From Balanoglossus misakiensis (lineage: Eukaryota; Animalia; Hemichordata), in NCBI GenBank assembly GCA_040954595.2, contig CM082582.2, positions 558,001 through 622,000 on the forward strand: a stretch of DNA of 64,000 nt, in the 5' to 3' direction. Of the stretch, positions 31,601 to 64,000 are shown in pieces. Made by a program: the position numbers and the translations under genes. The notes beneath the pieces were generated by a model that saw nothing but the letters and a program-made list of their open reading frames with translations, had not been told where the DNA came from and made no database searches. Numbering within the stretch: position 1 is the first letter of the stretch; the number at the start of each line of letters is the position of its first letter.

Positions 31601-31648
31601 GAACACAATCATCGCATCGCATCTTTCATCAAGAAAAACAAATCGGAG

Positions 31649-37073: not shown

Positions 37074-37401
37074 TATGGAGAAGTGAGAGATTTACTCCAG
37101 AAGGATCACGTGACGGAAACTCTTACCCTATCAGAGTTAACTTTGTTTCCCGCCAAACTTTATACTTGTAGCAGATTTATTGTAATTTTTGAGTGTTTGC
37201 TCCGGCGTTCGTGGGACTTATATATAACCCAGTTTTGGCGCTTTCGTGCAGCTTTTTGTAAGGAGCTCTGTGGTGTTACTTTGTTGTTGGATTCAGATGG
37301 TAATAAACCAGTGTTTTACCTAGCACTGAATCGTTCGCTTCTTTTCCGACGTCAGTATACTCGAACCCCCTCCCGGGAGTATTGATCACTGCCACGATAC
37401 T
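37074..37401 (+). repeat. 3' LTR of the BEL/Pao element
   Basis: Begins immediately after the PPT (TAT.. instead of canonical TGT..), contains TATATAA (~37219) and AATAAA (~37302), and ends ...gatac(t) before satellite sequence. The ends are approximate because no second LTR is available for comparison. Confidence 0.75.
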
Positions 37402-39713: not shown

Positions 39714-42700
39714 GCAACGTTGATCAAGTCAGATTTCCTACGGCACGGTTCGACTAAAAACCCGGCACACCATGACAGACACTACCGTTCGTTAGCAACG
39801 GAGATCAAGTCGGATTTCCTTCGGCCTGGCTCTGCAAAAGACCCGACACTCTAGTACAAAGACGTTGGCTAAGTCGGGCAAACCGAAGAGGGAAAGTCAC
39901 AGCGGCTCAATCGTCGACATTTGTTCGGGTAGGACTGCATTATTGCCCGTCAATTTATTGAGAAAGCCCGAATTTAACCAGGGCGTTTCAAACACCGACG
40001 TTAGTTGGGGGCACGGCCTGCAGTACTGCCGGGTAAGCTGACATCGGCGTACCGCATATAATGTAGGGGGGGGGGGGGAACAGAACGGTTCAATACTACA
40101 TTTATTAGATATCAGCTAATTTTGGACAATCATCTAAAATCTAAATCATTTTTACATATTTGGATATCTGATGATGTATGAATTTTCCATTATATGTTTA
40201 AATGGTGCTGATTATAAAAAATGCACTCTGAATGAGCTGATTTAATACAAAATTGCGTTTTATTCGTTTTTGCACCAAAAAGGTCATTTTTAGGTAAAAC
40301 ATTCTTTATTTTATTAATTCGGTGACCTGATCATATATAAACAATTGCTTGTATGTTAACATTTTTTATGACTTTTAAAAGCAGTGACACTGGCGGCATT
40401 CAACACGAAAATAACAATTTTAGCCACAATTTGGTCAAAATGGTAATTGTTTGAAAATTACAAAAAATACCTGTTTTCTACATTTTCGGAAATCTGATGG
40501 AGTATAGAATGCTCTTCGTATGTATATATCGATACAAATTCCACAAAAGAGCGCCTAATTTGGCTCACTGCAGACAAAATTGCGATTTACCAAATTTTCC
40601 TTGAAAATGTCATTTTTAGAAAAAAAAAAAAAAAACCTTTGTTCTTCGAATTTGGTGCCCTGATCATATATTACATGTTGATTGTATGTTAAGACTTTCG
40701 ACCACTCCAAAAATGCAGAGATATTGACGGAATTCAAGAAAAAATAGCCATTTTGGCCATATTTTGACAAAAATGGTAAATTTTTAAAAACACATAAAAA
40801 ATTAACTCTTTTCTTCATTTTCGGAAATATTATGGAGCATGAAGTGTCATTCTCTTGTAAAAAGTGCTGCAAATTCCAGAAAAGGCGGTATAATTTGAAT
40901 CACCCAAGACAAAATTACCATTTTCGTCTTTTTTCGAAAAATTGTCTTTTTCACAAAATAAATAAGAATAAATTCTTTTCTTAGTTTCAAACGGGTAGAG
41001 ATACTTTCCACACGGGTTTTCTAACATTGAATTCCCGTTCATCAACTCAGATTTCCTACAGAATAAGTCGGATAAAACCCTGACACTCTAGAGCAGAAAC
41101 AGTTGCACACTGGTAACGTTGAACAAGTCGATTTTTCTACGGCCTGGCTCGGCTAAATCTCCGTCACAATATGACAGACACTAGCGTACGTTAGCAACGG
41201 TGATCATGTCAGATTTTCAACGACATGGCTTGGATAAAGCCCCGGCACTCTAGAGCAGAAACACGCGTACAGAGACCACGTTGATCTACTCACATTTCCT
41301 TCGGCCTGGCACGGCTGATGCCCCGGCACTATATATAGGACACAGACTGGCGTAAGTTAACAACGGTAATCACGTCGGGTTTCCTTCGGCCTGGCTCAGC
41401 TGAAGCCCCGGCACTCTAGAGCAGAAACAGGCGTACATTGACCACGTTGATCAAGTCAGATTTCCTACGGCGTGACTCGGCTGGTGCACCGGCTCTATAT
41501 GACACAGACTGGCGTAAGTTATCAACGGTGATTACGTCGGATTTCCTACGGCCTGGTTTAGCTGAAGCCCCGGCACTTTAGAGCGGAAACACGCGTACAT
41601 TGACCACGATGATCAAGTCAGATCTCCTACGGCCTGGCTCGACTAAAACCCCGGCACACCATGACAGACACTAGCGTTCGTTAGCAACGGTGATCAAGTT
41701 GGATTTCCTTCGGCCTGGCTCTGCAAAAGACCCGACACATTAGTACAAAGACGTTGGCTAAGTCGGGCAAACCGAAGACGGAAAGTCACAGCGGGTCAAC
41801 ACTCAACATTTGTTCGGGTAGGACTGCATTATTGCCTGTCAATTTATAGAGAAAGCTCGAATTTAACCAGGGCGTTTCAAACACCGAAGTTAGTTGGGGG
41901 CACGGCCTGCAGTACTGCCGGGTAAGCTGACATCGGCGTACCGCATGTAATGTAGGGGGGGGGGGGACAGAACGGTTCAATACTACATTTATCAGATATC
42001 AGCTAATTTTGGACAATCATCTTAAATATATCTAATTCATTTTTTCATATTTGGATATCTGATGATGTATGAAATTTCCATTATATGTAAAAATGGTGCT
42101 GATTATAAAAATGCACTCTGAATGAGCTGATTTAATACAAAATTGCGTTTTATTCGTTTTTGCACCAAAAAGGTCATTTTTAGGCAAAACATTCTTTATT
42201 TTTTTAATTCGGTGACCTGATCATATATAAACAACATGCTTGTATGTTAAAAGTTTTTATGACTTTTAAAAGCAGTGACACTGGCGGCATTCAACACGAA
42301 AATAACAATTTTAGCCACAATTTGGTCAAAATGGTAAATTTTTGAAAATTACAAAAAATACCTGTTTTCTACATTTTCGGAAATCTGATTGAGTATAGAA
42401 TGGTCTTCGTATGTATATATCGATACAAATTCCACAAAATACCGTCTAATTTGGCTCACTGCAGACAAAATTGCGTTTTACCAAATTTTCCTTGAAAATG
42501 TCATTTTTAGAAAAAAAAAAAAAAAACCTTTGTTCTTCGATTTTGGTGCCCTGATCATATATGACATGTTGATTGTATGTTAAAACTTTCGACCACTCCA
42601 AAAATGCAGAGATATTGACGGAATTCAAGAAAAAATAGCCATTTTTGCCATATTTTGACAAAAATGGTAAATTTTAAAAAAATCTTAAAAAATTAACTCT

Positions 42701-43617
42701 TTTCTTCATTTTCGGAAATATTATGGAGCATGAAGTGTCGTTCTCTTGTAAAAAGTGCTGCAAATTCCAGAAAAAGCGGTATAATTTGAATCACCCAAGA
42801 CAAAATTACCATTTTCGACATTTTTCGAAAAATTGTCTTTTTTACAAAATAAATAAGAATAAATTCTTTTCTTAGTTTCAAACGGGTAGAGATACTTTCC
42901 ACACGTGTTTTCTAACATTGAATTCCCGTTCATCAACTCAGATTTCCTACAGCATAAGTCGGCTAAAACCCTGACACTCTAGAGCAGAAACAGTTGCACA
43001 CTGGTAACGTTGAACAAGTCGATTTTTCTACGGCCTGGCTCGGCTAAATCTCCGTCACAATATGACAGACACTAGCGTACGTTAGCAACGGTGATCAAGT
43101 CAGATTTTCTACGGCATGGCTTGGATAAAGCCCCGGCACTCTAGAGCAGAAACACGCGTACAGAGACCACGTTGATCAAGTCTGATCTCCTACGGCTTGG
43201 CTCGACTAAAACCCCGGCACACTATGACAGACACTAGCGTTCGTTAGCAACGAACACGATTGGGAATATTTTGGGATAATTGGATTTGGTACAGTTTGCC
43301 AAAAATGATGGAAAAATATGTTACCAGACTGTAATTTTCACTACAGGCTGAGTTAAATTGCTTAATTTAAACCACTCTGCTGTGCAATTAAATTTCTTTC
43401 ATTTTTTTTCATATTATCCAGCCAAACGTAACACTTTTATAAATGTCAAAGAATATATATATAATGAAAAATTGAAAAGCTTCCACTATCATAGAATAAT
43501 GTCTACATGTATGAAATTACATTTTTTTCATCATTTACCTATTTTTAATTTTTGAGTGTTGTCAAGTTGCAACAGCATGTGTAAATGGCCTTATTCTAAC
43601 TTATATTGAATAAATAC

Positions 43618-46600
43618 CTCTGGAACGGTTTTCCACATGGCAGTATGCCGGTTGAACGTAGCAGTTTTTTTCCTTCTTGAGAACTCCCAGAACGTCACTG
43701 ATCTGCATAACATCACAAATTATTGCAATATTATACATCTTCTTTTGTGAATCACAGTTGACAGCTTTTATCATGACGACCAATCGGTTGATATCATCAA
43801 CAGACCATTCCTACAAGAAAAAATACGTTGAGTGTCATTAATAAAACTGTCATTGTGTAGTTGTACTCACAATGATAACTGTATATACAGTCAGTGTTGA
43901 CAAGAATGACACTGGCAGTTTCAACAAGATAGAAATAGCTGTTGTTCATACAGCGCAGTTAATGCCGGTCCCATATCATTTTTGTTATTAACCATGAACA
44001 CAAGTTGTAGACTGAGTGATATTCAGATATCAGTGAATACAATCACAGTTATATAGTTTTTAATGAGCTTTTAATCAAATTGATGGATTCATACCAGTGG
44101 AAGTACACGGGTGTAAGGTCATGAAGAGGTCATGGAAACGGCTAATTGGTTGCAAACATGTATGTGACAAGAGTAGAATTTTGAAATAAAAATAACTTAC
44201 CTTAGGCATATCAATCAATGTTAAGTCAATGCCAGAAAACCCTGGGCAGTGTTCCTTTAGGAGAACTGTATTTAAATTTTGGACAGCCTCTGAGATCGTA
44301 AAAGCATATGTCCCATTTTGGGAATATGCTGCAGCCTTTTTCGTGTTATCTTTGTACTTCTCCAACAGAAGCAACCGCTGACAGTAGTTGACAAATCCGT
44401 CTGGAATTCCTCTGGAGAAGGACAGCTTGGTAAATTCCTCCAGTCTCTCACGTTTTGCTTCTTTCGGAAATCGTTCAGTCGCTTCTTTCCACCCACCATC
44501 CAAACAGTTTGTCTGTTGACAAAAGCTCCTCTGTATAATGTCTAACTTTTTCAGAGTCGATGCCTCCTTACACATTTCAGCATATGACATAGTGCTGTCA
44601 ATTACATTTTCCAACAGCAGGCGCTGATCCTCAGTGTCTATACAGAAAAAGTCTTGGAGTTTGCTGTAGGGTAGAACAGGTCGATTCTTATACTCTTCTC
44701 CTTTTAACTTCTGGTCTTTGGTTGCCCCATCTTCATACATCTCTATAACAGACATCATCAGCTCAAAGTTTTCAACCATGGATGAAATCCCATAAATAGT
44801 TTGCATCATGGCACTGTTGACTCTCTGTAAAATGAAAAAAAAAATGATTACAAAATTGTTTTCATACAAGTATAGTCATAAAATCATACTACTTAGACCG
44901 ATTTCACACATATTTATAAGTAACTATAAATCAGTGGAATCCAAAAAAAAAAATCATTGAGGAATATTTGCCAATTTGTGTGAGGTGTTTATGTATTGGT
45001 TGTTTCGTCTGTTATTGTCAAATACTATACCTTGTCAAATTGATTTTCATAGAAAGCTAAAGCTCTATATACACAATGTCATTCATAATATTTTCTAAAT
45101 CATATTGGGACATCAATCAGGAGAGTTTTTGTACATGGTAAAAAAGCATTGAAAGCTCGAAGGAATTAGAGACATAAGATATCTATGGAGTAATTTTCCT
45201 TCAGGACAACATCGGGTCTGACTACAATCAATATAAGAAATATTAAAAACCACTGAAAACATGGTAAAGCTGCACAAATATAAATACATGTACTTGCCTC
45301 TTTTTCCCAATTCGCTTTGTCGTCCTCATTTCTTGTTCTTTCATAGAGTTCTCTACACACTTTGACCTAAAAACACAAGAATAGATTACAGCCATTATTA
45401 GTCAATACTGTGTGTACTAACATTTCATATTAATTAGTATCCCAGCAATTAATTGCTCCTGAATGCAAAGTGAGATGAAATGCAGAAGAATACCAGTTTT
45501 TTGTGTTAAAACAAACAAGCTCCAATGATAATCATTTTTGATATTGTGAACATGTCAGCCGATGGAACATCAGTGATCTCACAAAAAATCATATTTGTGC
45601 ATAAATAAAAAACTAAAGCTATATGAATTTTCTCCATCATTCAACTTCTGTCAGTGTTGTTTCAACTTTTTTTAAGAGTTTTTTTTTTTGGGGGGGGGGG
45701 GTGCAGATATGAAGTAGCTAAAAAGCATACCAGCTAAAAGATGTGTTTCAGAGTACAATCTTGTTGTTAAATTCAGGACAATAGTGACTAGGACAGAAGC
45801 CAATAACACTGCAATGTAATGTTTCTTACAATTCCTAAAACTTTATTTCCCAACATTGTCTTATCTGTGTTGAATTAGGATTTGATTTGTAATTGTCATG
45901 ATCATTATAACACTCATTCACATCACACACATTACCTTATCTTTAAAGCTCATCTTGCTGTGCTGTTGCATTGTGATGTTGTGTTGGTTGCCTAACCACA
46001 GTCTCTGCTCCTCATTCAAGTCAGCATACACCACAGCATATCTGGACTGCAGCTCTTCCCTATCGGGGTATTTTTCAGCCAGATTCTTTACAGCAAGATA
46101 CGAGTGTTGGTCTCCAATCACTTCGTAAGTGTAACCATTGACCTAAAATTTGCAATTAATATATACATTAAAATTAACATGGGTTATGAATCTAATTTTC
46201 AAATCAATCCAACCAGCAGTTTTCAAGATTTATACTGATCACTCTCATGTTTGTTTCAGCTAATATGATGGTAGTGTCAAACAAAATCTCAATCCAGTGT
46301 GCAACTAGAAAAATAATAAAAGATGATCCATCCATTGTTTCCAAAATATTTGTAGAGGAAACTATTATGTCATATACATGTACGCAAATGTACATTTTCC
46401 AGCCAATAGGAACTTAGCTTGCCATACATATCCCAAATAGGAGCAAAGAATATTATGGCATAACATATAAACCTGTCCAAATAAATCAGACTGATCATGC
46501 AAATGAACAATAAAACCACTGTCCTTGTTAGCCTTAGAAATAAGAAATAAATTGTATTACAGTAATATACATTTTTTGCACTTACATTGCTGTCTCTGAA

Positions 46601-49599
46601 GTTTAGCTTGGTTTCTCCCTTCAAAACGACAGCAAGTGGCTGATATGCTTCGTTGTAGAACTCCTCCATATACTCCTGAAGGTGCCTTACCCAATCTTCA
46701 TTTACTTCACGGATTTGTTTTCCAACTTCCATTGATTTGATGCTTATAAGATATGTTCCTATGAAATGGTGAAATATCAAATACCATTGTCAATTATATT
46801 CACAAAGATTACTCATAAAAACAGACAATCTTTTTCTGTATTGATATTGTTACTGTAAGTTACTGTTACAAGTTTATTGCTAAAATGCACACAATATTGC
46901 TTCAGCCGTGCACGTATTACAATATGGGACTTTCTAGCTGAATTTAGTTACCACCGTATAAAACAAGTCTTTCTAGAAAGATACAAGCTGCCACTTCTAG
47001 TGTCTAAGCTTGATTCACGTTTACATACCAATATGACAACTTCTGATACTTTTCTTCATCGCTTCGGTTTCTTTGTCAATTTCAGCAACCTTTTCGTGTA
47101 TTTTCTTTCGCTTTTGTAGAGATGGTATGGCCAGTGCTCTGGCTTGATCACACAGCCTTTTCCTCTTCCTTGATTTTTTTTTCCTTGGAGTTTGAGTTCT
47201 GGATAAAAGAAAAAATACACAGAATTACTTCTTTTTGTGAAGAAGCAAATTTTTAGATAAGTAGGAAAGAAACGTAGTTTCACGCATCTCAGACATCATG
47301 CATCATTCTTAAACACATTTTGAGTTCATCATTGTCATAAAAGTCTAGTGAGAGACTTATCAAGCAATATGTCCCTGATTATGTTGCAATTTCAAAGATG
47401 AAATGAACTCATGGTTTTAATCTAGAAAGAAAACATGACACATTTTGCATCTTTCATGACATGTCCATTGCCAGATATTTATCTGCTGTGTTCTGCTAGA
47501 AATTTACCTGTAGAAAATGTTAAAGCCAAAAATCATGTTGGACTCTCACAGGAATTTCAAGTCGTTCAAAAAATGTTTATAGGGATAAACTGTGTTTACA
47601 CCATCTTGGAAATTTGCAGTGCATTATGGGTCAATTGAGTTCCGGTTAGGGGGGAGTAGCGTCTACAACCTATCCAATTTTCCAGCGATTTTGTCAGATT
47701 TTCTTCAAGTAACGTTAGTAGTTGTAGTTACATGAAGAAAATTTGACTAAACCGCTGAAAAATTGGATAGGTTGTAGACGCTACTCCCCCCAAACCGGAA
47801 CTCAATTGACCCATAATGCACTGCAAATTTCCAAGATGGCGTAAACACAGTTTATCCCTATAGGGTAGGTTTGGTTACTTTAAACTGACAATATATTTGT
47901 GAGCCTCAACACTTACCCTGCGGTATTTGGTTCTGAACTAGGGTTATTTTCCTCTACACTTGGGCAATCTTCCTCTTCATCCATGTCATCTTCATCAGAC
48001 AATTCCACACTTGACACAGACATAGTACTGCACGGTGATGAACTTGTCTCCCCATCTTGATTTTTTTCCAATTCCAGCAGCCTATTGAACTCTTCTGCGA
48101 AGTCAACTGGAGTCTGATAATCTCGTAATTTCCGAGAAAATTCACTCTTGTTCCAGGTGAACGATGAACGAGAGAGCTTGAAGGGATTTTCAACTGGAAG
48201 GCTGAATACAATCTAGTATGAGAAATAACAGTTTGTTAGTGAACTATAGTTTCAAAAGTTACTACATCAAGCACAGCACCAACATAAATCTACACAGCTT
48301 AGCTTGAATGGTCTGGTAGTCTATGCACCAAAATAAACATGTTTTGCTTGCAAAGATGTTGCTGCAGTTGCCTTAGGGTTTGAGCGATGCTGTTATGACA
48401 TATGGGCAAATCCATCTTGAAAATCCCACAGCATTACGATATGATTATAAACTTAATCTGAACTCTGAATGATGGTTCTGTGGGAGAAAGATTGAAAATA
48501 GCGTTGTTTCTTGGTGCAACATCTACAATATGGCTCCAGTGACATGCCTCCCAGTTTACCCCTCCGATTGCCCCATAATGTTTTGCGATTTTTTAAAAGA
48601 ACCCTTATCATAGTCTTGGTTACCCAGACTCCTCTTTTTCTCCCTTTGGGCACTCCAGAAAGAAGGTCTAGGGGAAATACCAAGACTAAGCTTTTCACTG
48701 AGCCAATGGCCGGCCACGGCAAATAAGAAATTCACATGAACATACATGTATGGCATAGTCAGCAGCACAGTGGATTCCCAACAATACAAAACTGGTCAGT
48801 TTTTTTTTTCAATCTGTGGCATGTTATTGAATGTGGTTTATTGAATGTGGTCAGGTGCACAAGAAAAGCTAGAACTGATTTGAAAAACTGATTGGCCCAT
48901 GTATAACGCCCCTGCTTTAGCTGGGTATGTAGAGAACTACGCGAGGCCCTAGTGTTTTCTGGTTTCCAATTTTCAAAGACAATGTTACGCCAATGTTGTA
49001 CCTTTTTCGGGTCCCAAACACGTTCGACGACGTCACGTCGTCAGGTTAAAAGTCATTTCAAAGCCCGGGAACTCACATACCTACACAACGCAGGGCTAAG
49101 GCTATGACGTCATGATGCAAAACCCATACTTTTCATTAGCTTTGTGTACACGATCAACGCCGCTGGTTTGGGAAACGCGATCGTTGATCGAGTATTGCAT
49201 AGCCACATACGATTCAATGAATTTGAGTGGCCTGGAGCACAGTCGCCTGGGAGTTGGGTCGTAAACACTGCGCCGTGTATACGATCCAACTCCCAGTCGA
49301 CTGTGCCTAGTCTAGGGATACCACAAGCATTTGTAATGGCGCCCATTTTTGAAGTTGGCTAAATAAACGGATCACGACCGGAACTGAAGCAAGATAAGAC
49401 CTTAAATACTTACCTTGACAAAGTCATCGTTTTTTTCGGCATGGGCACCACTATCATAGGCTACAACTGTCCTTACTGCGCTGTATGGAGTGCTTTTCTT
49501 TTTCGGATGAAGTTTTGAGGGGCCACTGTCCTTGTAGTCGAAATATACAAACACGGCATCGTTTTCCCGTTCGAACCACCAACGGCGCGCTCTAGGCAT
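43618..49599 (-). pseudogene. Spliced gene encoding a ParB/Sulfiredoxin-like domain protein with a possible degenerate methyltransferase-like C-terminal region; 3' end lost in or beyond the satellite
   Basis: GT-AG exons at about 49599-49414, 48212-47917 (frameshifted), 47198-47029, 46758-46586, 46142-45936, 45366-~45296, 44824-44201 and 43810-43618. The joined peptide QIREVNEDWVRHL..QPLAVV..YEVIGDQHSYLAV..AVVYADLNEEQRLWLGNQHN..KMSFKDKV follows the ParB N-domain pattern. A later segment reads GIDLTLIDMP. Confidence 0.7.
47578..47862. mobile_element. Fold-back MITE (~285 bp, ~133-bp arms) in an intron of the ParB-like gene
   Basis: TATAGGGATAAACTGTGTTTAC...GTAAACACAGTTTATCCCTATA; the arms pair almost throughout with a ~15-nt loop. 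TA/TATA flanks. Confidence 0.88.
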
Positions 49600-50245
49600 T
49601 TTGGACAGGCAATCACTGAGCTCTCGTCGTGTTCTGAATTCATACTGTACAAGTTCAAGTTTATATACACCAACAAGAAGCCCATGTCGCCGACGAGGCT
49701 GGCGACGCTTTGCATAATTAAGTCAATCCGCATTGACATTTCACCTCCCAGGGAATATTTGCATTTTAAAGGTCATGGGGTCAGCCGTGGCACACACCCG
49801 TACACGTACATAGGATCTGGGAGTACATGTATTTGTGACTGCAAAAGTACTAATAATCGATATAGGCCTATACATTAAATAAATGTTTTAGATGTGTTGG
49901 ACAATATTTGCTGGTGTAATTAACACTCCTCCACTCTTCAACGGGGAAATCAGTAAATCAAAATGTATGCAACTGCATGATGCACCATATAGGGTATGAC
50001 CGTAATTGTGAACCCGAACATAGAAAGACAAGTCTCTTTATACAGTGTGGCAACAGCTACGTGCCCTCACCGTCCCTCCGAACGCCGGCCGAAGCCTATA
50101 CTAGTACTTAGTAAACTCTTTTTATTTCAACAGAAGGAGTTTGTTTTCCGTAGGTTCGTGTTGCGAAAAATAGGCCAAAGGCAGCCTTGCTGGCGAGAAT
50201 GAGAAATAAATGTGTTCCCGGTCACCCTAAAACTGTTTTTCTTGG

Positions 50246-50606
50246 GAGTTAGCTCTGCGTACAGGTCTGTGTGTTCCCGGCGTTACACGGTTACCGGTTG
50301 AGATAGACATATTGCATACAGGCTTAGGCCCAGGCCTACAGCGAGTTTATTTCCATGGGTAGGCCTAAACACAAAGGTTTTAGAAAGCGAGCGATTCGGA
50401 CGTTATAAGAAGTAAATCACATCATATTTGGACTTGTTTAGGTGTTAGAAGTAGACAGGGAAAGGATTTTCCCCCCGCAAACATCGAATTTCGGCTGAAA
50501 AGCTGCGGCCCGGACGCACCAGTTTTGTCTATGGAGCCGTGCAGGGCCGTGGTGGAGGCCGTGTAACGCCGGGAGCACACACACAGACCTGTACGCAGGG
50601 TAACTC
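50246..50606. repeat. ~45-bp imperfect inverted repeat separated by ~270 bp (degenerate MITE or regulatory structure)
   Basis: gagttagctctgcgtacaggtctgtgtgttcccggcgttacacgg (50246-50290) versus ccgtgtaacgccgggagcacacacacagacctgtacgcagggtaactc (50559-50606). Confidence 0.75.
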
Positions 50607-52456
50607 GGGAGTGAACTTTAATAAATGGGGTGAAAATCGGGTGTGATTTCAGATTGAGATCCAGGTTTAATGACACTTGTTTTTAATCGTTTATTTCTCC
50701 TTATATTTCATGTTTTCCCCCGACACAATATATATTTTCTGTTAGCTTTATAGGCCTACTTAATTTTCGGTTCTCTTTCTGTTTTGCGAAAATGCACAAT
50801 TTTCAGTATGTTTATTCAAAGAATTGTAAATAAAAAGACAGTGCCTCCAGGTGATCGACACCTGGATATATTGGAGAAAATAACTTACCATGGAATTTTG
50901 ATATTCACTTATTCACTTTTGTTTTCGAACAATGAGACTTTTGAATTGCCAACTGTCAATTTTTTGCATAAAAACGATCATAAATAGTACTTACTCACTG
51001 TGTTGTTATGTTTTAATGAAGTAGTATAATACTTGAGACTTGAGAACAAGCCATTTTAATCTAGAACGTTGTGCACGTTCATAAATCGGGGGAGAATCGG
51101 GGAAAACGACACCATTACTGACAGAGTACAATATTGATTTGTTATACAGCAAACACGGGGCTGTTAATCCCCGACACTGATAACTTCTCGAAATGACACT
51201 AATCCCGTTAAGTACACACTTAGCCCGTTAAGTACTAGTGTACACTTCTGAAAACCCATTTTTATCTTATTTTCTCACTCCTACAGTAACATGTTTTAGT
51301 AATTGTACATTTGGGGGTGTTTCATTGCTCTGTGCCCGGTAAATTAGTCTATGCCACGGAGCATGATGATCGGGTCCTGATGGAAGCCATAGTTGACAAT
51401 CATGCTGGAAGTCGCTTGACAAAGTATGCCTGTCAAACTTCCTGTTTTTGCTGCTAGCCTAACTTTCGAAAACTCAGATTTGCATATCTTGAAGTTATCC
51501 CCTGGGCTCCTGTGAATTGGTTACCAAACTTCAACACTAATCCGGTGACAATTAATCAGAAACGTTGGCTTCTCCAGATTTCTGGTAGGAAGCTACGGGG
51601 ATGACAGTAGGAATAGTTTTGGTTTTAGTCCCAGCTTAGCTACTCGCTTCAGAGGGATGAAATGGTTCGATATGAACGGCACTGTCCGCAGACAAAGCAG
51701 CGAAATGGGTTTTTCGAGCTTGACACTTTTATTTATACCACACTGTAATACGGAATGATCTGCAAGAAGTTTAAATGAAATGTTAGAATACAGAATACAC
51801 GATAGGGAAAGTACGGTACAAAAAACAGACTCTTACTTAGGCCTACCCCCACCCCCCTCAGGAGTTTACCACTCCAGTACCACGCATAACCAGCTGGTAC
51901 GCGCATGGTGTGAATAGGTGTGAATATTGGGACCAGGGTACCCCCCTGGCCTCATCATGTACTGGAGGTGTGAATCGGGACCCCTCGAAATAAACAGTTT
52001 GTATATAGTCTCGGTCCCAGGTGTTTCTAGACTAAACCTCACAGGCACCTCCAGGACTAAACCAATGATGGTTATCTCAGGTGTTTGGAGCGAGTGTGCC
52101 TATACGTATAAATGACAAATTTGTACAATTATTTGCCCATTCTTTAACTCGTTTGATGGTTTCATTTAGTTCGTTACTCATAGGAAAGTGATATTATTCA
52201 CTAGATCTTTAGAATGAGACGTACATATACATTTGGGTTGCCGATTGGCTACACCTACCCCCCCCCCCCCCCACACACACACACATCTGGAACGGTCGAA
52301 TCAGCTTCCGGTGGAAGGAAGCGAAATCTGTCTTTGCTGAAGGCGAAGGTTACTCCCGGCTGTTCACGTTCATACGTCAACATCGCTACGCAAACGCTCA
52401 CGCTCGCCATCGTTTACGATCGCATTTAACAGATATTTCTTGCATACCTACTTTTA

Positions 52457-53259
52457 GGCTGCATTCACAAACACCTCTGGAGGGGGGGGGGCGGGAGAAT
52501 TCAATTTCTTTTACCGCTAATTTTCACATGCCCCCCTTCCAAACTGCCAATATTTTCAAATCCCCCCTTTCCGAACTGCCAAAATTTTGAAATCCCCCCC
52601 CCATTTTCTTTCACAGAGCAAAACACATCACCTATCTATCTTGTAAAAAGAAAAACAGCACTCCCATGAAAAGAATTTGAAACTGATATTTCCCCTCATC
52701 AGTGGGTATTAAAACTGAACATTGTTTTTATTTTTTAAGTACATATATTTGTATTCTGTGTTTGGAGACATTGTAAACCGATAATTGAAGGGGGTGGGTT
52801 TGGGAGGGGGTGTTTACCTCCCACGTAAGAAATTTTCTAAAATACAGAGCTCAAAGCTGCATTTTAATGAACCCGGCAAAAGCAAATTAACTCCAACTAC
52901 CGGTATGTTGGGGAGGACAAATGTAACCGTCGCCGCTCAAAGTTATCATGGGGTGGGGGCAAGTCCCCTGACCTGGGACACTAGATAAACCAGTCAATGA
53001 TTGAAAGGTGTTGATGAATGGAGGGGGTGGGTGTGGGAGGGGGTGTCCCCCTCCCACATTAGAAAATTTTGTAAAATAAAGGGCGCGAAACTGCATTTTT
53101 GTGGACTCAAAATAAATATTTAGTCGTTAAAGTTTTCAAGTCCCCCCCTTTCAGTCCCTAAATTATTTCAAATCCCCCCCTTACATACCCTTAATTTTTT
53201 CAAATCCCCCCCTCAATTCTCCTGCCCCCCCCCCTCCAGAGGTGTTTGTGAATGCAGCC
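52457..53259. mobile_element. PIF/Harbinger-type MITE (~800 bp)
   Basis: TIR GGCTGCATTCACAAACACCTCTGGAGGGGGGG...CCCCCCTCCAGAGGTGTTTGTGAATGCAGCC; TTA TSD at 52454-52456 and 53260-53262; subterminal TTTTCAAATCCCCCC repeats. Confidence 0.88.
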
Positions 53260-56200
53260 TTAGTTCTTGTCTATCGTATTAATCGTCGTCGTTCGTCTGT
53301 CATCGTTTTTCTAGAAGGTTTTTGAGAGTTTTTTAAAGGCCAAAGACTTCGGAGCACTGCAGTGAAGGAGGTGAGTTGAGTTTTCAGTGTGTACACAATG
53401 TTTGTTACTTTCGCTCGGGCGAACCAGTTCTAACTCTTGTGTATGTCTGAATTTGCCATGTTTCTGTAAGTGAGACCAGATCAGAGTACACCCGAACAAG
53501 ATGGATTCAGTTATTTTGTCGATGATTTTGTTTTCTTTTCTTTTTAGTCACTTGTCTAATAACTCTTTTCACTTTCAGCGTCCAGTTTTCACACTTGACT
53601 GAAAGTAGGGAGTTCAGAATCCAATATGGCGGCTACACGAACTGCCGTACACAGTAAAATATTCCGTAGTTCTAAAATGACAATTTCTCGCTCTGACAAC
53701 TTGGCAAATTAGCTCATTGAAGTTATTTTCTATAAGCTGAGTAATTTTATTCACGTAATATATAGCATGCTGTGTTTTGTCTCCCTCGGGGAAACTTCCA
53801 CTTGGGCCGACTGCACACAATCGTGGACGAGAGCCAATAGGTACTAAGCTTTGAAAGTAGTTTCAAATGATAGCCAATGAGATTAGCTGTAATATGATAT
53901 TTTGAGCAATATTGACAGTTTTTGACCAAAATTCCATTAAAATTAGCGTATGCAGATGTGGATATCTGGAGAAGTAGTTGGCCGATTTGGATTTTTTTTT
54001 ACTTCTTTAATGAAGATGCAAAAAAATATTTCATGAAAAAAATGAGCTATCATACAGATAAAATTTTCACTGTACTCCCAACTGAAACACACCCCCTTCC
54101 AAATCCCCATGCGAACCAACTTGCTAATTGTTGTGACTTTTTTTGTAATTGTGCAAAGTTGCTGATTTGTCAACATTTTCGTTCTTTCCTTCTCGTGAAA
54201 AACTAAGTTAAACAACACCAAGTCCCTCTTTTGAAAGCTTGGATGTGAACTTTAAAAGCACAGGTTCGCACTTTCTTTTTATTTGTGTGCGACACTTATT
54301 AGCATAACAAACAGCAGGATGAGTATCACTTGTACTTGTAGTAGTTGTGTATGAAAGTCATATGCAAATTATGCTGGCACTTTCTCAAATTGTCTCCACA
54401 ATTCAGAAACAAAAATGATTAAGACTTTGGCACGAAGGTGTTATGAAAGGGGGCGTGGCGCATCTGTAACATGGGCTTGTTTCTGTGTTCTAATAGTCTA
54501 GTTTACAATTTCTCAGTCTAAGTTTACTACTCTCAAATTATAGTTTCATAGCCTAACTTGTTTACTACTCTCAAATTATTTAAAGTAGCTGATAAAGTGT
54601 CATGTTATATTTTTTCTTTCTTTCAGTGTATTTCCTGAGCTGTAGTTTCCAGTGGAAAGGGTTTGGTTAAACGTTTGGCCGACTTGTCTTTTATATTTAT
54701 AATCAGTGCAATTTTTATGTTTGTCAGTTTGTAATTCTACAAATTTTTGAGATACATATATTGTTTCCTCAACATCCCACAATACTTTTGTAAAAGTCAT
54801 TTACTCTGTCAGTGTTTTAGTCTTCTCTATTGTGTTTTCTTAATATTGATGTAATAGTGGTATCACTAACTTTTAATCTGTGACTATATATACTGACATC
54901 AGTTAAGTCTAACTGTTATTAATTGAATATTAATATTTTATCCTAATTTTGCTTGGACTAATACATTGTTTACACTTTTTATAATCCTAACCAGAGATTG
55001 TGTTTTTATTTTTTATAAACCTAATCTTAGATAATTATTTTTTGTGCTTTTCCATAATAAAAGTGTTGCTTTTTTTCCTGATATGGATAATTCTGATAAT
55101 CTAACTGTTGATCATTTCATGGAATGCACATTTACAGAGCAGGAGAAATTTCTAGGCCACAGAGGGATACGAGCAGATGATAAACAGGAGCAGCTGGCTG
55201 AAAACGAAGAAAAATGTACAGATGAAGAGTCAGACGTCAGAACAGACTGTTGGAGTTCCACGAGCGATTGCGGAACTGGTACCAGCATAGCCAGTTTTTG
55301 CCCAGGTCACCAAAACATTGTCAACTCGGACAGCATTCCTGAATGCTCCCGTCCTGCCTCCTTGGTCGCAGCCACTCTTTCTACTGCAAGCAGTTACACA
55401 ACAACAACAATAGCAACACATGCATTCTCAAGTGATGAGCCTGGCGAGCACAGTTCTGCAGATGGTGTCGTTGCCGAGAAGATGGAAAAAGACAGTGACG
55501 TGTCGCCTCCAAGAAAAAGATATCGTCGTTGCAGTCGCCGAATTTCCCAGCCATTGCGCAATTATACAACTGTTTACAATATTCGTTGTTGTGACTCGAA
55601 ATGCCTTCACTCATTCTCACCAAGCGAGCTGCGTGAAGAGGAGATGATGTTTAAAGACCTTGGCAATGAGTCGAGACAAAAACAGTTTATTATTGACACT
55701 CTCCGCCAGTTTTCTTCATTCACCTACTCAAAGAACAGAAGAAAGGCCATTGTCACGGACCTCAAAGTGCTTGGTAAGAAAACATGTGAACAAGCATGGC
55801 GTGAAATCTATAATGTTAGTGAGAAAAGATAAGAAGATTGTGTCAGACTTTTCCGTGACGGCAAGGTGAACATTGTACATGGCAACACACATATGAAAAG
55901 GTCAGCAGCCAAAACTGAGAGAGCCTTGTCGTGGATGCGGTTTTTATTTGAGCGAATCGGTGATTGGATGCCTCATAAGACTCAGGTAGGTTATTTCAAA
56001 TCCTTATTTTAATTGAAGTTTCAAAGCTTCAACTCATGTCTGACAAACTTTGCACCAGTAACAAGGTGTGTCACATCTTTTTGAAAGTGTGAATGATCTG
56101 TGTAATACAGATGGAATACAGAAATAATCTTTACCAGATATAATCAACCGATTGAATTGACCAATTTAGCTGTGATTTGAGAATTGTAGGGCCTTTGTGA

Positions 56201-59200
56201 TCAGTTTAGGACCAACATCTGCGGTACTGTTTGTTTGTGTGCGAGTCCCTTCACTACAAAAACATGAGAACCACCTCATGTGTCAAGTCATGTTGTATTC
56301 ATAGGGTGATGCGTCCTGGACTTGCCCTTGATATCATCCTCTGCTCATGAACACATTTTGTGTTTATAAACAACGAGTTTGTAACTTATGTTTGTACTGT
56401 ACATGTTATCATTTATCTAGGTACATTTGCCAACATCATCTTCAAAGAAACTATTCCATAAAAGAATGCTGAAAGAGTTTGAGGAAGACTTGGGTATCAA
56501 GAAGGACGACAACATTAAATATGAGTATTTCACAGAAATATGGCAGAAACACCTGCCAGAATTTGTCATTCCAAAGGTTAGTAGGAAACATTTGGAGGAA
56601 ATTTGTCATCAGTTGCATATGTGTCAGGACTAATTTTCAGATGATGCTTTTTAAAAGTTCTTTCTGATTGAAGCTAGTCGATAGTTCAAGAGGGCATCAA
56701 CAGATGCTGACCAGAGGGGGGGGGGGGGGGTGTTTAGGGCAACTTTTGTCATTTTCAACCTAAAACATGCAACCACCAATTGGGCATACTTTCTGCTATA
56801 TAGTACTTAAATTGCTTTGCTGTCCTATTTTAGAGGTAATTAGATCAGCAGTAGACCATATGTATCAAAGAAAGTTAACATTCTTGATTGTATCAATGAA
56901 TAGATCAAGTGTAAATAATGTATCATTGATGTGATTTTTTTTCTGATTTTACAGCGTCAAGAATTTGTGAAATGTAGCATATGTGTTCAGCTGAAGGAGG
57001 ACCTTGCTCGGGCAAGAACGGCAACGGAAAGAGAGAAGATAATGAATTTGATTGACACACATGTGCAGCAGGTTGAGTAAGTATACAGTTTGGGGAACTA
57101 AAAAAAACTAGATTGTGTATGAAAATGTAATCGGACAAGCTTGACAAATGTCTTTAGAAATATTTTTTATTCAGTTTTAATTGAGAAGTACCGGTATGCT
57201 TTCATGACGATTTGATAGAATGGACTATAATTAACCCCTGAACATCTCTTTAATGTTACAGACCAGCTCATGAGTTTTTCTGAAATAGTCACTTTTACTA
57301 AAATGGACTGTTTTCATTACCGTAGGGTGTAAATGCAGGTTTAACTCAATGAAAAATATGTATGTTGTGTACACAATTATATTTTCATTGTTTCTTTACA
57401 GGATTGAAAGACGGGTGTACCACAATACACGAGAACAAGCTAGAAAAAGAGGCAGATGAAGTAATGTGTATAATCCAAGATGGCATGGACCAAGCAAAAA
57501 CCTGTATTCCCCATCTTGTTGAGAATGACAAGTTGACTGCATGTCTTGCTCGTATAAGACTTCATCTTACTGGTAAGATAAGATTTTAGAAGGGTTGGTT
57601 GGCCATGGCATCTGTATGTTTTCTTTGGTTATGTGTACGTCAGTCAAATGACACATCATGAGGTTTTGTTGTGCAAATGTACCCCACTGTGTTACACATG
57701 AATTATTGTCAGTCAATTATCTTTTGCTCCGTTTGTTTTTTACTGAACACCTACACATTCATATTTTTACATTTTAGGAAATATCATTCACACAAATGTA
57801 CCAGGGGGCAAGATAGTGCCAGCGTATTTGGATGTACTGAACTTTCCACATGACAGCAATCTGTCGATGAACCTCCTTTTGCAGACTTTAGTAGACAACA
57901 AAGTCAGACTATCAAGGAGATTGTTTGCCCAGATGGACAATTGTTACCGGGAGAACAAGAATAGATACATGCTGTCTCTTGGACATCTTCTGGTTGAGTT
58001 GAACATATTTGACCAGGTAATAATTTATTTACTTCATGTACAGTTGCATGCAAACTGTACCATTACTATATTGTTGGTCAATTACATTGCATATCGTTTG
58101 TCCCCATTGTTTAATTTCTGTCCATTTGGGTATGAGGAATTGCCACAGGTTGTTCACTGAGGTCAGTCATCAGGTGATTCTGCATGATTCAGTATAGTTA
58201 TTTAGACAAACAGGTCACAATGTGTAACATGAATAGAGTAAACTTATTTTCAAAAGTTAGAGCTGCTATCCTTTTAAACTTGATGTAAACTGGACTCGGG
58301 GTTTGTTCATGACAGATCAAATCCTTTCAAATGAACAAAAGGGTACTCTCACACCCCTGTTACAGTCAAAGGCTCTGGCAGTTGTCACTTCTTTGATTTT
58401 TAACTTTATGTTAGTGGGTCCATCAGACCAGACAAAAAAAATCTCTGTGGTTTAACCTTGCATAAATATTAGTCCCAGACCTTAGACCAATGAATTTGCT
58501 CACCCCTGTGAACAGCTGATGTGTGTAGGAGCCCTTTTCTTACAATTGCAAAATGTTAATCATTCTTATCAGTGTATAAATTTTAATGATAGAATTTAGT
58601 TTAATATCTCATGCAGTTCGTCAAGTATATGCTGATCATGTTTTTTTGAAATCAGTAGAAATGTACGTTTCTTTCAAGTCAGATATTGTCACTTCATGAT
58701 TTTGAACATGACATTGTTTATGCTACACTATGCATTGAATGTATATATATATTTGACATGTGTCGACCCTGCGCATAACTGTCAATCTTATGCTCCATCG
58801 ATGTTGAAGTGTATTGAATACATAGTTTTGATAGATACGTAAACATACCCCTTAAAACTGATTGAATGAGTTCTTTTGTGTTCTCTTGCAGGTTGACTTC
58901 CACTTCCTACCAGTTGGACACACACATGAAGATATTGATCAACTGTTCTCATGCATTAGTAAACTACTCCGGAAGACAAATGTGTATACTATGGCAGGTG
59001 AGACAGTTGTCATCAACTTTCGATTAAGATTGTATGATTATCACTTTTTGACTGATAAAATCAGCTACTTTATAGTTCATATTCTAAATCTGCAAAAATA
59101 TGCAATTAAGTAAAAAAAAACGTGTAAAAATGGTCAAAAATAAAATCTCACTACTAGGCAAATTGGTGAACAGGTACCTAAGGTTGAGACTTCATATACT

Positions 59201-59974
59201 TTTCTTAATTTTGTATCTTGGCAATTTTCTTCACATATGGTAAAGAATCCACTCTGAATTGGCTTGCCAAATTGCTTTGAAATTTGGATGACAGACATAT
59301 TTGTCTATAATTGGTTAAAAAACTACAATCACAAAACAGGAAGTGTTGTGTTCTGAATATAACTCTGGTGTTCTCAGCACAGTATGACAGACAAGTAATC
59401 ATTTTAGTGTCATTAGAACTCTCATTCTAAGCGTGTAGAATCTGAGATACAGTAGGGCCAATATCTACACAATCATCATTCAGGTCAGTGTTCAAAAGTA
59501 AAATAAAAGGTTAGATCTAGAGAATAGGAGATATGTAATAATGATATAGAGAATAGGAGATATGTTATAATGATATCACGGGCTGTTTGGTGATATGAAG
59601 GAACTGGCTTATAGTTTGGATGCCTTCAAAGCATGGAAGACCACAGGAGAAAAAAATCCAATTAAAGTCATTCTGATATGCCTGATGCACTTGTGTAAAG
59701 CATGTTATTGTAACTGCACAATTTTACTGTTGTCCTCAAGGTAATATAATGGTACAGCCTGATCTGAAACCAGGAATATTATTACCTATTAAACACCCCT
59801 GTGATTTTTTTTTGTCTGCAGATATGGAGCGGATTATCACTGGCTGTTATAATGTACCTGTCTTCGTGAAACATGTAATAATAAATAATAATAATAATTT
59901 ATTTGTATAGCGTCAGTATCCACAAAAAAATGTGATCAATGACGCTTAAAGCAAAAGTACAATACAACAAATGG

Positions 59975-61740
59975 CTAAAAAACAGATTTAAAAAGTAAAG
60001 TTTTAACATTTGATTTAAAAACAGATAAGTCTGGTGCCTGGCGAATGGTGAGTGGAAGATTATTCCAAAGAATTGGAGCAGCAACAGTAAAAGCACGATC
60101 ACCATAACTCTTGGTGCGTGATCGAACAGGGCAGAGTTTGAACTGATCAGCTGACCTTAAATTGCGACATGGAACATATAGATTAGTCATGCTAGAAAGA
60201 TAGATTGGACCAAGTTTATGAATGGATTTAAAAATGAGAACTACATCTTAAAAACAATACGCTCTGTAACAGGTAGCCAGTGCAACTGATACAAAATTGG
60301 AGTGATGTGACAGGTGATTTTAGAACGAGTTACAATTCTAGCAGCAATATTCTGAACGCGTTGGATACGGTTGATTGAATACTTCGGGAGCCCAAATAAA
60401 AGTGAATTACATGAATCAATTCGAGACGTAGTGAATGCATGAACTAATTGCTCTGTAGCTGAATGAGATAAATATTTGCGGATAAGCGCAATGCGACGTA
60501 AATGAAAAGTGGCAGAGCGGCAGATCAGTCCAATATGTGGCTTCATTGTCAGACAAGAGTCAAGGATCACTCCAAGGCTCTTAGCCTGACAATGGACGGG
60601 AATCAGAGAATCGCCAACACGAATTTCTGAAATCCCTCTAGCAGACAGATCACCCAAAATACCAGAGAAAATAACAAATTCAGTCTTATCATCGTTTAAG
60701 CACAAGAAGTTTTCAGACATCCAAAACCTAACATCAGAAATACAAAGTTCAAGATTTGAAACAGTTCTTGCTGCGTTGTCTTTACTAAAAGACATATAAA
60801 GTGAAGAGTCATCTGCATAAAAACTATAAAGACAACCATGACTTTGAACTAATTCACCTAATGGAGACGTGTACATATTGAAAAGTATGGGACCAAGAAC
60901 TGATCCCTGTGGTACCCCAGTGTCGAGCGGATAAAAAGGTGATTGGGTGGAATTTACAAGTACACACTGACTACGATTGGAAAGGTATGACTTAAACCAC
61001 ATGAGAACAGTATCTGAGAGACCGAAGCAGTCTCTTAAGCGATTGAGTAAAATGGTATGGTTCACAGTGTCAAATGCTGCGGAAAGATCGAGTAATACCA
61101 AGAAAACATCTCTTTTTTCATCAAGAGCAAGCAAAATGTCATTTGTTACTTTGAGGAGAGCAGTCTCAGTACTGTGTCCTGGCTTGTAAGCAGATTGCAA
61201 AGGCTCGTCCAATGAATGGTTGACAATGTGAGAAGTCAGTCTCTTGGCAAAAATACGTTCCAGGATCTTCGACAAAAACGGCAGGTTGGATACAGGACGG
61301 AAATTTTTGAGAACTTCATGATCAAGAGATGGCTTTTTAAGTAGAGGTTTAACGATGGCTTCCTTGAAATGAGGAGGTACAGCACCATACTGCAGAGAGT
61401 TATTGAAGATTTCTGTGATATGTGGTAACAAAACTTGTAAAATGTCAGAATGTTTGAAGATCTTGGTAGGAATCGGATCAAGGCGACAAGTAGATGAAGG
61501 CGATGCACGAATAACCTTGTCAATTTCATCAGCTGTTGTAGGCTCAAAGGCATTAAGGCGACAATCGGATTTCAATTCAGTTTGTGGTTGTGAATGATGT
61601 CGAATGGAATTGCCCATATTTATAGTTAGTGATTTTACGCGATTAATGAAGAATTTTGCAAAACGATTTGCTAATTCCAGAGAATCATCATGTTTTGGTA
61701 GTACAGTGGATGTGTTATTGTGACCAAGCAGTCCCTTTAC
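59975..61740 (-). pseudogene. L2-type reverse transcriptase, frameshifted near 60241
   Basis: LDPIP, KPLLKKPSLD, FRPVSNLPFLSKILE, HSTETAL, LDLSAAFDTV, GVPQGSVLGP, YADD. The C-terminus YGDRAF..AAP.LWN.LP continues in ORF 59975..60190. Confidence 0.92.
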
Positions 61741-61789
61741 GACCTTGAATAATTGTTTTTGGTTACCTGAGCACTCGTCAACAAGGCCG

Positions 61790-62273
61790 ACATGTCATGA
61801 TATTTCCGGGCATTTGGGCAGTTCAGATTGTCAATATGAAAATTGAAGTCGCCAGTGATGACAAGAGGGGCGTTGTTGGTGAGATGAGAAGACAAGAAGT
61901 CAGTGAAGTCATTAACGAAGTCATCAACAGTGAAACCATTTGTTTTATTCGGAGGAGGACGGTAAACCGTGGCTAGTGTGATATGCGACGATGGAGTTTT
62001 TATACGTACCTCCATTAATTCAAACGACTTGATTGAGGTAGAAGGTGGACATTGTGACACTGACAGTGAAGATTTAAAAATCGTAGCGATGCCTCCCCCA
62101 CGACCTTTACGCGGAACACTGATGATGCTATAGCCTGGTGGCAGATTTTCATTGATGAGGGATGAATCACTGTCATCGTCACGAAGCCACGTTTCAGCAA
62201 GCATTAAAACATCCAAATGACAGTCTTGCAGGAATTCGTTGATAGCTGTGGATTTATTGCACAATGATCGACA
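61790..62273 (-). pseudogene. APE endonuclease N-terminal part of the L2-type LINE
   Basis: CRSLCNKS, LAETWL, RKGRGGGIA, VYRPP, ITGDFNFH. It breaks off near 61790 and joins directly to the pre-RT region, which indicates an internal deletion. Confidence 0.88.
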
Positions 62274-64000
62274 GTAACTCATGTGTTTGATATTAAAAAG
62301 TGGTTGGTCCCACACATGAGCAAATATTTCAGAGGACAGTCGAAACCATTGTGTTTTCAGTTCAAGAAAGTAGATGGGCAGACCAGAATGCGTTATCGGC
62401 ACTACTCTACATCTGTCTGGAGGCCAACAGTCCAGTATCAGCAGGGAACCACCACACCAATTGATGAAAGTTTGGGGCTAAAGTGCTTACAGGTATTTAT
62501 ATTATATGATTTATATGCATCAATATAGAAGTTTGCAGTGCCCTGAAGACGTAACATGAAAAGGGGGACCATGCAATATTAGTACTGAGCTGATTTGACA
62601 TTTTTAAACTTATTTTAATGAGATCGACTTCAGTCATATCATGAGAGCAATTGGGCAATTTTGAATCAAAATATTTCCACCAGTTACAATTTACAAAAAT
62701 CCTTTTGCCTGAACTGAAAATATTTTAAAATTGTAGTACTGATCAATGTACATGCTGTTTATCTCATAGAGTGTGCCAGATATCAATGACGTTCCAGATT
62801 TTGTACAGCCATGCATAGAAAAAATGGACCCTGTGAAGCTAAAGAAGGATATCCCAGACAGTTATGAATGGAGAATACCCAGGGATGCTGACAGAGAGTG
62901 CCTGAGGGACTTTGTGGAAAATGTTGAAATATATGAATAGGTGTGTTATACTTCAGACATAAAAGGCATACTGGATATGACAGTTATTTTCAGAACACAT
63001 ATTGCAGAGAAAGAACATGCAATATAACATTCCTTTTGAAAAGCATAATTCCTTTGAGTGGTGAATTAACTATAAACTCACAATTTTTCTTAGTCTTTGC
63101 GGACAGCGTCAGGGGGACTGGGCTCTGTCCAGTCCTGGGGGAGGGGGGTATGGTCAATCTGCCCATCTATCTGTCAGTTCATGTGTCCGCCGCAAAGAAC
63201 ATGATAAATTTGAAGACATGGCTTGTTGCAGATAAGCGTTTTCCTAACTGCTCGAGTTTTTCTTTCGTGGATAATTATATATTATGCACTCTGATTCACT
63301 TGTAGGTTCCACCAAACAGACCAACAACATGGTTTTTCCATGATCTGATTGAAGCAGCAGACCAAAGAAGGCAAATGGAAACAGAACAGACACTACCAAG
63401 CCACCTTGAAGTGATCAGGACAAGAATTGAAAGAGAGTGTGATGATGTAAGTAGCATTTTAATTGTAACTATCACTGGTTCAAGACAGAATTACACTAAT
63501 GATAAATAGTGTTCTGAAAATGTACATGTGGATATATAGTGAATCAACATTCAACCACACACAACTTCCATCCCACTTGCAGAAACACACAAGTGAAAAA
63601 TTCAAAAATTCAACTTGCGAAAATAAAATGTTTTACTTATGTTTTAATCCCTTTAATGTGGGCAGCACGTACTTAGTATATTGGCAAAGTAAAATTATTC
63701 CTGTCGACGGCAAAGGAGTAGATGTCTGTACATGCCAAAATTAGGCTCAGCTAGACTGAACTTGCCCTGGGTTTGGAGTTTGCCTGAAAAAAATTCAATT
63801 CTCTTTTAGACTATCAGCCATTTCAACTAGAAAAGCTAAATTAAAGGGTAACTTCACCTTTAAAGGGGACTATTTTTCATGACAGGCTTGATCATGATTT
63901 TTTTCTTTATTGTTAATAGCAAAGTCATTTTGGAAAGAAAAATTATGAAAAGTGAAAACTCAATGTGATAAATAAAGTGTTAAATCTTATCAATCTTATA

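What the first reader, a model, noticed from the sequence alone, without database searches (positions are those of the whole stretch)
43618..63446. Divergent ParB-like gene + DUF7869/Sola-like transposase: candidate two-gene giant DNA transposon
Seen: two intron-rich genes arranged head-to-head ~5.5 kb apart, both decayed (stops, frameshifts, TE insertions), which suggests they were inactivated together as one unit. Known: DGMDQ / DNC..ENKN / GHTHEDID is an RNase H-like acidic triad of Sola-like DUF7869 proteins, and ParB N-domains are CTP-binding DNA clamps in prokaryotes. Inference: these are the transposase and an accessory gene of a large (>20 kb) animal DNA transposon carrying a ParB-fold protein. 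I know of no characterisation of this pairing.
Basis: partly seen in the sequence, partly recalled or inferred. Interest (0 to 1): 0.85.

Follow-up and report, generated by a model that had tools for sequence, protein, structure and literature searches.

The report
Decayed animal transposon carrying ParB-pseudomethylase
This is a broken copy of a likely two-gene jumping element of acorn-worm-like animals, pairing a transposase-like gene with a gene whose relatives are predicted to fold like a bacterial DNA clamp fused to a likely inactive DNA methylase, a design described in a brown alga but not found in print for animals.

Summary
Both genes are real and head-to-head (start codons 5.5 kb apart). 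The plus gene is a DUF7869 protein (Pfam E 5e-22) with a conserved D-D-D triad, killed by two stops, a frameshift and a LINE. The minus gene is not decayed as claimed: 639 codons splice open with no stop. It is cut off by a 2-kb satellite array and has G>D in a motif that is GG in 29 of 29 relatives. In Ptychodera flava, 6 of 10 transposase loci have such a gene within five accession numbers on a contig of the same length, and the two genes diverge in step. So this is very likely one mobile unit. Element ends and the RNase H fold were not shown. The pairing is published for Ectocarpus Sola1-1_Ec32; my searches found no animal report. This scan noted the design before in other genomes and as an intact 18.5-kb element in this genome.

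The parts
43618..49599 (-). ParB/Srx-fold + helical region + amino-methyltransferase-like accessory gene, 8 exons (49599-49414, 48212-47917, 47198-47029, 46758-46586, 46142-45936, 45366-45298 with GC donor, 44824-44201, 43810-43618), 639 open codons, 3' exons missing from the window
45936..46758 (-). ParB/Srx-like core (exons 4-5); motif reads IGDQH at about 46118-46104 where relatives have (I/L)GG(Q/C)H
   Evidence: Atlas features ParB_N 0.89, DUF6551 0.90, a lead only; fold of relative P0164; 29 of 29 GG
44201..44212 (-). Position of amino-methyltransferase motif IV, reading DMPK instead of (D/N/S)PP(Y/F/W)
   Evidence: relative's domain folds like CcrM
55083..63446 (+). DUF7869 Sola-like transposase pseudogene, exons 55083-55985, 56421-56576, 56955-57076, 57402-57572, 57778-58016, 58892-58997, 59822-59878 + 62278-62492, 62770-62940, 63306-63446; C-terminal ~120 aa not found in the window; start codon is a best guess
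57479..58939 (+). Predicted catalytic D-D-D triad: DGMDQ 57479, DNCYRENKN 57936, GHTHEDID 58916
59879..62277 (-). 5'-truncated LINE (reverse transcriptase ORF 60241-61794, endonuclease remnant, AT-rich tail) inserted into a transposase exon
49600..55082 (.). Divergent intergenic region, CpG-rich relative to both gene bodies, with two high-copy inverted-repeat insertions (50246-50606, 52456-53260); no palindrome array found
47578..47862 (.). Foldback element (92% self-complementary, high read depth) in intron 2 of the accessory gene
1..43252 (.). 2.05-kb satellite array with 81-bp sub-repeats that cuts off the accessory gene; no sequence similarity to the element

Best explanation
This is likely a dead, partly overwritten copy of a large two-gene Sola-like cut-and-paste DNA transposon of acorn worms, whose second gene encodes a protein predicted to fold as ParB plus a DNA methylase that likely cannot methylate and so would act by binding the element's own DNA. 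Shown: two divergent spliced genes; a DUF7869 protein with three conserved aspartates; repeated pairing of the two gene families in a relative; loss of the canonical methylase catalytic motif across the family. Inferred: the DUF7869 protein is a DDD transposase; in intact copies the ParB domain loads (nucleotide-dependently, as a clamp or dimer) on repeated sites of the element, likely near its ends, and the methylase fold serves as a DNA-gripping or base-reading module that helps pair the distant ends or keeps the shared divergent promoter active. This copy has lost its transposase (stops, frameshift, LINE) and probably its accessory protein (truncation, G>D), and neither end lies in the window.
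For: DUF7869 E 5e-22 and 4e-13. Against 8 long metagenome relatives at 22-37% identity, the first D is kept in 7 of 8, DNC in 8 of 8, and GHTH..D in the 7 that span it. P. flava holds 10 transposase loci among the 11 models retrieved, mostly fragments, on 10 different contig lengths. 6 of 10 have a ParB-methylase family protein within 1-5 RefSeq accession numbers on a contig of the same length: XP_070548894/895, 550572/573, 580909/910, 550668/670, 561780/784, 555382/387; rough chance 1e-12 overall, 3e-7 using chromosome-scale contigs only (3 of 6). Co-divergence: the two pairs closest to the window are closest for both genes (transposase 84-87%, accessory 75-76% identity), the other four pairs are more distant for both (59-73%, 44-49%). 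AlphaFold model of the full-length Saccoglossus relative P0164 (29% identical over 654 columns; pLDDT 67, pTM 0.41): residues 531-753 match CcrM Z 18.9, rmsd 3.3, 210 aligned; residues 199-326 match ParB-like PadC Z 10.7, rmsd 3.0, 97 aligned; KorB-CTP Z 8.9, sulfiredoxin Z 8.7; Foldseek CcrM E 1.3e-9, Myxococcus ParB E 8.9e-7. Motif IV: 0 of 82 relatives that cover it (of 182 searched) read (D/N/S)PP(Y/F/W) or have an aromatic at position 4. Same design in Ectocarpus Sola1-1_Ec32, 21.5 kb, 4-bp TSD.
Against: No terminal inverted repeats or target-site duplication could be examined, since both ends lie outside the window or are lost. RNase H fold not shown: the model failed (pLDDT 38) and no sequence match to a solved transposase was found. 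4 of 10 P. flava transposase loci had no accessory gene near them among the 18 retrieved, and 12 of 18 accessory proteins had no transposase within five numbers (the transposase search was narrow). Linkage rests on accession order and contig length, not on DNA; orientation and distance at those loci are unknown, and three of the six pairs are on small scaffolds that may be alternate haplotypes. No palindrome array was found in 43253-64000, so no binding site supports the binding step. The SAM-binding motif I is intact in several relatives, which fits retained catalysis as well. The fold evidence is for a relative, not for the window's own protein.
Confidence: 0.68

Rival explanations
1. Same two-gene transposon, but the accessory protein of intact copies is an active, atypical N4C/N6A DNA methylase (DxPxxW motif) guided by ParB to mark its own element, as proposed for Ectocarpus.
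For: Whole beta-class fold is kept (Z 18.9); motif I D..GxG is intact in 6 of the 27 relatives displayed; D is the commonest first residue (42 of 82) and P the commonest third (59 of 82), and W follows two residues later in 23 of the 49 rows with a residue there; proposal in PMC12477816.
Against: 0 of 82 have the aromatic residue that (established knowledge, recalled) stacks the flipped base; 40 of 82 lack D at position 1, many also lacking N or S; motif I is degenerate in other relatives (P0052, P0097).
Confidence: 0.17
2. The accessory gene at this locus outlived its transposase and is still expressed (domesticated or supplying help in trans), with its last exons lying beyond the satellite array as a giant intron.
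For: 639 open codons with intact splice sites against three point-type disablements in 760 codons of the transposase; CpG-depleted gene body next to a CpG-rich upstream region; reads carry the 21 nt missing from the window.
Against: Zero disablements is not significant at the transposase's rate (expected 2.5, chance of none about 0.08, my arithmetic); G>D at a 29-of-29 invariant glycine is also in the reads; the intron would exceed 43 kb of satellite.
Confidence: 0.1
3. The two genes are independent: a host or separately mobile ParB-methylase gene that happens to lie beside a dead transposase.
For: No shared ends seen; 4 of 10 relative loci unpaired; different state of decay.
Against: 6 of 10 loci paired, matching subfamilies paired with each other; the same design in an alga.
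Confidence: 0.05

Closest known systems
Sola1-1_Ec32 of Ectocarpus (PMC12477816; passages and supplement rows read, figure and sequences not seen)
   Same: Large Sola-type DNA transposon (21.5 kb) with an opposite-strand gene for a ParB-like domain plus N4C/N6A DNA methyltransferase domain.
   Different: Here an animal, intron-rich, at least 20 kb without its ends; the methylase catalytic motif is non-canonical in all 82 relatives tested (state in the alga not seen); I could not compare sequences directly or see whether the algal genes are divergent or convergent.
Plavaka (EnSpm-type) elements of Bostrychia with PAG2/PAG3 (bioRxiv 10.1101/2025.02.11.637652; one passage read)
   Same: Giant DNA transposon with a ParB-domain accessory gene proposed to bind its own sequence.
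   Different: Different transposase; ParB fused to a 2OG oxygenase, methylase on a separate gene; inverted-repeat arrays beside the gene, none found here.
Beta-class amino-DNA methyltransferases (CcrM, M.RsrI, M.PvuII, rotifer N4CMT) and ParB/Srx CTPases (ParB, PadC, KorB)
   Same: Predicted folds of the two domains, motif IV before motif I.
   Different: DPPY replaced by DxPxxW-like sequence; ParB nucleotide motif is sulfiredoxin-like GG(Q/C)H rather than the arginine-rich ParB motif (latter recalled).
Inactive methyltransferase domains of DIRS1 retrotransposons (PMC4738411; passages read)
   Same: A transposon-borne adenine-methylase fold judged catalytically inactive.
   Different: Different methylase group, retrotransposon, no ParB domain.

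Membership tests
DUF7869 (PF25273) | Profile match above the curated cut-off | tested here: met
   78.8 and 49.8 bits against cut-off 26
Sola DNA transposons | Conserved DDD triad in the transposase | tested here: met
   three aspartates conserved in distant relatives; that the motifs are Sola-like is recalled, no Sola reference sequence was aligned
Sola DNA transposons | RNase H fold | tested here: inconclusive
   model failed, pLDDT 38; no PDB sequence match; one Atlas structural neighbour cluster has 11% DDE_Tnp_ISAZ013, a lead only
Sola DNA transposons | Terminal inverted repeats and 4-bp (AWWT for Sola1) target-site duplication | not testable with these tools
   ends not in the window, no genome held; definition from PMC3845634 passages
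Sola DNA transposons | Dispersed multiple copies | tested here: met
   10 loci in P. flava; diverged (85-90%) copies in the two runs laid
Sola + ParB-methylase two-gene elements (Sola1-1_Ec32 type) | Opposite-strand ParB + amino-methyltransferase gene linked to the transposase | tested here: met
   window anatomy, fold of relative, 6 of 10 paired loci by accession
ParB/Srx superfamily | ParB/Srx fold | tested here: met
   on relative P0164: PadC Z 10.7, rmsd 3.0, 97 aligned; ParB E 8.9e-7; no Pfam ParB hit for the window exons
ParB CTPases | CTP binding, clamp closure, parS-type site | not testable with these tools
   no assay; no palindrome array in the part held; this copy has G>D in the motif
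Beta-class N4C/N6A DNA methyltransferases | Fold and motif order IV before I | tested here: met
   relative: CcrM Z 18.9, Pfam N6_N4_Mtase E 6.6e-14
Beta-class N4C/N6A DNA methyltransferases | Catalytic motif IV (D/N/S)PP(Y/F/W) | tested here: not met
   DMPK in the window; 0 of 82 relatives canonical
Beta-class N4C/N6A DNA methyltransferases | SAM-binding motif I | tested here: inconclusive
   exons absent from the window; intact in some relatives, degenerate in others

The most novel reading that the evidence does not exclude
Animals from sponges to acorn worms and sea cucumbers carry a lineage of giant Sola-like transposons whose obligate partner is a nucleotide-gated ParB clamp fused to a catalytically dead DNA methylase: a bacterial partition-type protein reused to bring the far-apart ends of a 20-40 kb element together or to shield it from silencing, co-evolving with its transposase.
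Probability: 0.3. Interest if true: 0.75.

Novelty: new variant of a known kind. Interest (0 to 1): 0.5.

Why it matters
It extends to animals a transposon design so far described in algae, and suggests the methylase has become a non-catalytic module there, which changes the proposed function from self-methylation to binding. ParB clamps are thought of as prokaryotic; a eukaryotic, intron-containing, transposon-borne one would give a testable answer to how very long cut-and-paste elements pair their ends. This particular copy is a ruin without ends, so it serves as evidence for the family rather than as the object to study.

Tried and rejected
Own-genome search: no genome held. Word-indexed homolog search with the 208-aa exon: 0 of 810 candidates; the full HMMER search then found 175. 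AlphaFold of the transposase alignment failed (pLDDT 38), so no fold search was run on it; PDB sequence searches with two transposase profiles gave nothing relevant; NCBIfam no hit for 4 transposase queries. Metagenome scan: 25 transposase loci of 1-10 kb, 0 of 25 with an accessory-gene match, too short to test linkage. Palindrome and k-mer scan of 43253-64000 with repeats masked: no clustered motif; counts only, no shuffle control. Satellite as part of the element: rejected, best match to the right part was 20 nt, E 0.15. Rfam and tRNA scans of the window: 0. No RNA holder listed. Read depth is flat over both genes and about four times that of a diverged copy in run X1, but contig depth is no copy number, so it was not used. 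Loose ends at 43253 and 43285 show a 33-nt piece shared with other loci and did not reveal an array-free allele. Paper searches: 'DUF7869' 0 papers; ParB+Sola+transposase 7, only Ectocarpus relevant; ParB+DNA transposon+accessory+metazoan+methyltransferase 2, both algal; ParB+transposon+methyltransferase+eukaryotes+expansion 2; Ptychodera flava+Sola+transposon 1, unrelated by listing. Iyer et al. 2011, Bao et al. 2009 and Repbase were not seen and may describe animal members.

Full report
Setting. The window is eukaryotic (no genome held). Its closest named relatives are proteins of the acorn worm Ptychodera flava, then Saccoglossus, Holothuria and the sponge Halichondria, so the host is likely an acorn worm. 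Bases 1-43252 are a 2.05-kb satellite array with inserted retroelements; the finding occupies the rest.

Plus-strand gene. Nine exons from 55083 to 63446 give about 760 residues with four breaks: TAA at 55830, a frameshift near 57445, a 5'-truncated LINE at 59879-62277 that splits one exon, and TAG at 62938. In an alignment with 8 long metagenome relatives at 22-37% identity the first aspartate is kept in 7 of 8, DNC in 8 of 8 and GHTH..D in the 7 that span it, which fits a catalytic triad. The RNase H fold was not shown: the model failed and PDB sequence searches were blank. That these motifs are Sola-like is recalled, not tested against a Sola reference. A relative continues about 120 residues further (P0160), and those exons are not in the window. 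A 4-kb contig of run X1 spans the first stop without a listed difference there.

Minus-strand gene. Eight exons splice in phase with no stop; relatives begin at the same WW motif, placing the ATG at 49599 and giving 639 codons. Its faults are different. The array begins at 43252, 366 bp into the next intron, and the last 110-125 residues are not in the window; one contig of X2 reaches 29 letters into the array side. An in-frame 21-nt piece at 45300 is present in both runs (one sample) and in relatives but absent from the window. The ParB motif reads GDQH where 29 of 29 relatives have GG.

What the protein is. A full HMMER search with the largest exon found 175 relatives. Full-length ones end in Pfam N6_N4_Mtase (E 6.6e-14 for P0164). 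The AlphaFold model of P0164 (29% identical to the window protein; pLDDT 67) matches beta-class amino-methyltransferases in its last 230 residues (CcrM Z 18.9, rmsd 3.3, 210 aligned) and the ParB/Srx fold at 199-326 (PadC Z 10.7, rmsd 3.0, 97 aligned; KorB, sulfiredoxin). The window's exon 5 alone draws ParB-clan neighbours in the Atlas at 0.89-0.90, a lead. Motif IV is DMPK in the window, and 0 of the 82 relatives that cover it (of 182 searched) have the canonical (D/N/S)PP(Y/F/W). Motif I is intact in some relatives and worn in others. A pseudo-methylase is the simplest reading; an atypical active enzyme is not excluded.

Are the genes one unit? No DNA of relatives could be fetched, so I used RefSeq accession order and contig length as a proxy for neighbourhood (an inference about how accessions are assigned). 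Of 10 P. flava transposase loci, 6 have an accessory-family protein within 1-5 accession numbers on a contig of the same length; 4 do not. Three of the six are on different chromosome-scale contigs. Rough chance is 1e-12 overall, 3e-7 for chromosome-scale contigs and 3e-4 within the small-scaffold range. The pairs also match by subfamily: the two closest to the window in the transposase (84-87%) are closest in the accessory gene (75-76%), and the other four are further in both (59-73%; 44-49%). Most models are fragments, as expected of decaying transposon copies. Diverged copies of the accessory gene also appear in the runs laid. Against: 12 of 18 accessory proteins had no transposase neighbour among those retrieved, orientation at the paired loci is unknown, and no termini were seen.

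Mechanism. Shown: anatomy, pairing, folds of a relative, loss of DPPY. Inferred: in intact copies the DDD transposase cuts at terminal inverted repeats; the ParB domain loads on repeated sites of the element and the dead methylase fold grips DNA, helping to pair ends 20 kb or more apart or to keep the shared CpG-rich promoter (observed/expected about 0.8-1.1 in much of 49-54 kb against mostly 0.1-0.6 in the gene bodies) open. No palindrome array was found in the part held, so the binding step has no direct support here.

Known work. [quoted passage not shown] The Bostrychia preprint describes ParB-oxygenase genes beside inverted-repeat arrays in Plavaka elements (one passage; supplements closed). 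PMC4738411 notes ParB-HTH methylase fusions in chlorophytes and chytrids and inactive methylase domains in DIRS1 (passages). Five searches found no animal report; Iyer 2011, Bao 2009 and Repbase were not seen. Earlier notes of this scan report the same design in other animals and plants and an intact 18.5-kb element elsewhere in this genome, also read as a pseudo-methylase; they are unchecked notes, and my motif count was made on my own hits.

Verdict. A real, decayed member of a two-gene Sola-like family; the design is known from an alga, while the animal lineage and family-wide loss of the catalytic motif are not in print as far as I could search. New variant of a known kind, interest 0.5.

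Noticed in passing
window 1-43252: Array of a 2.05-kb unit (about 1.15 kb unique plus 9-11 copies of an 81-bp sub-repeat), very deep in both runs, whose orientation flips near 17460; no Rfam or tRNA match.
   Followed up: partly
window 7093-14975 and 17752-25635: About 7.9-kb near-perfect inverted duplication that includes a LINE: a 1240-aa ORF at 21884-25606 is intact, its mirror copy at 7122-10843 is frameshifted. Recent foldback event or assembly artefact.
   Followed up: no
window 31595-36901: Intact 1768-aa ORF resembling a BEL/Pao LTR retrotransposon polyprotein (by eye) inserted in the satellite array.
   Followed up: no
window 38755-39717: About 1 kb of non-array sequence between two array units, with short ORFs at 39157-39714.
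   Followed up: no
window 49237-49306: 70-nt imperfect palindrome (89%) in intron 1 of the accessory gene, low read depth; could be a single binding or regulatory site.
   Followed up: no
window 45297-45298: GC-AG intron donor in the accessory gene, supported by alignment to relatives.
   Followed up: yes
P0160 / P0003, residues beyond the window match: The relative's transposase ends in a Tudor/SH3-like stretch (by eye; weak MBT hit E 0.003 in L006), possibly a chromatin reader.
   Followed up: no
window 63519-63587: Very high-copy short repeat just after the last transposase exon held.
   Followed up: no
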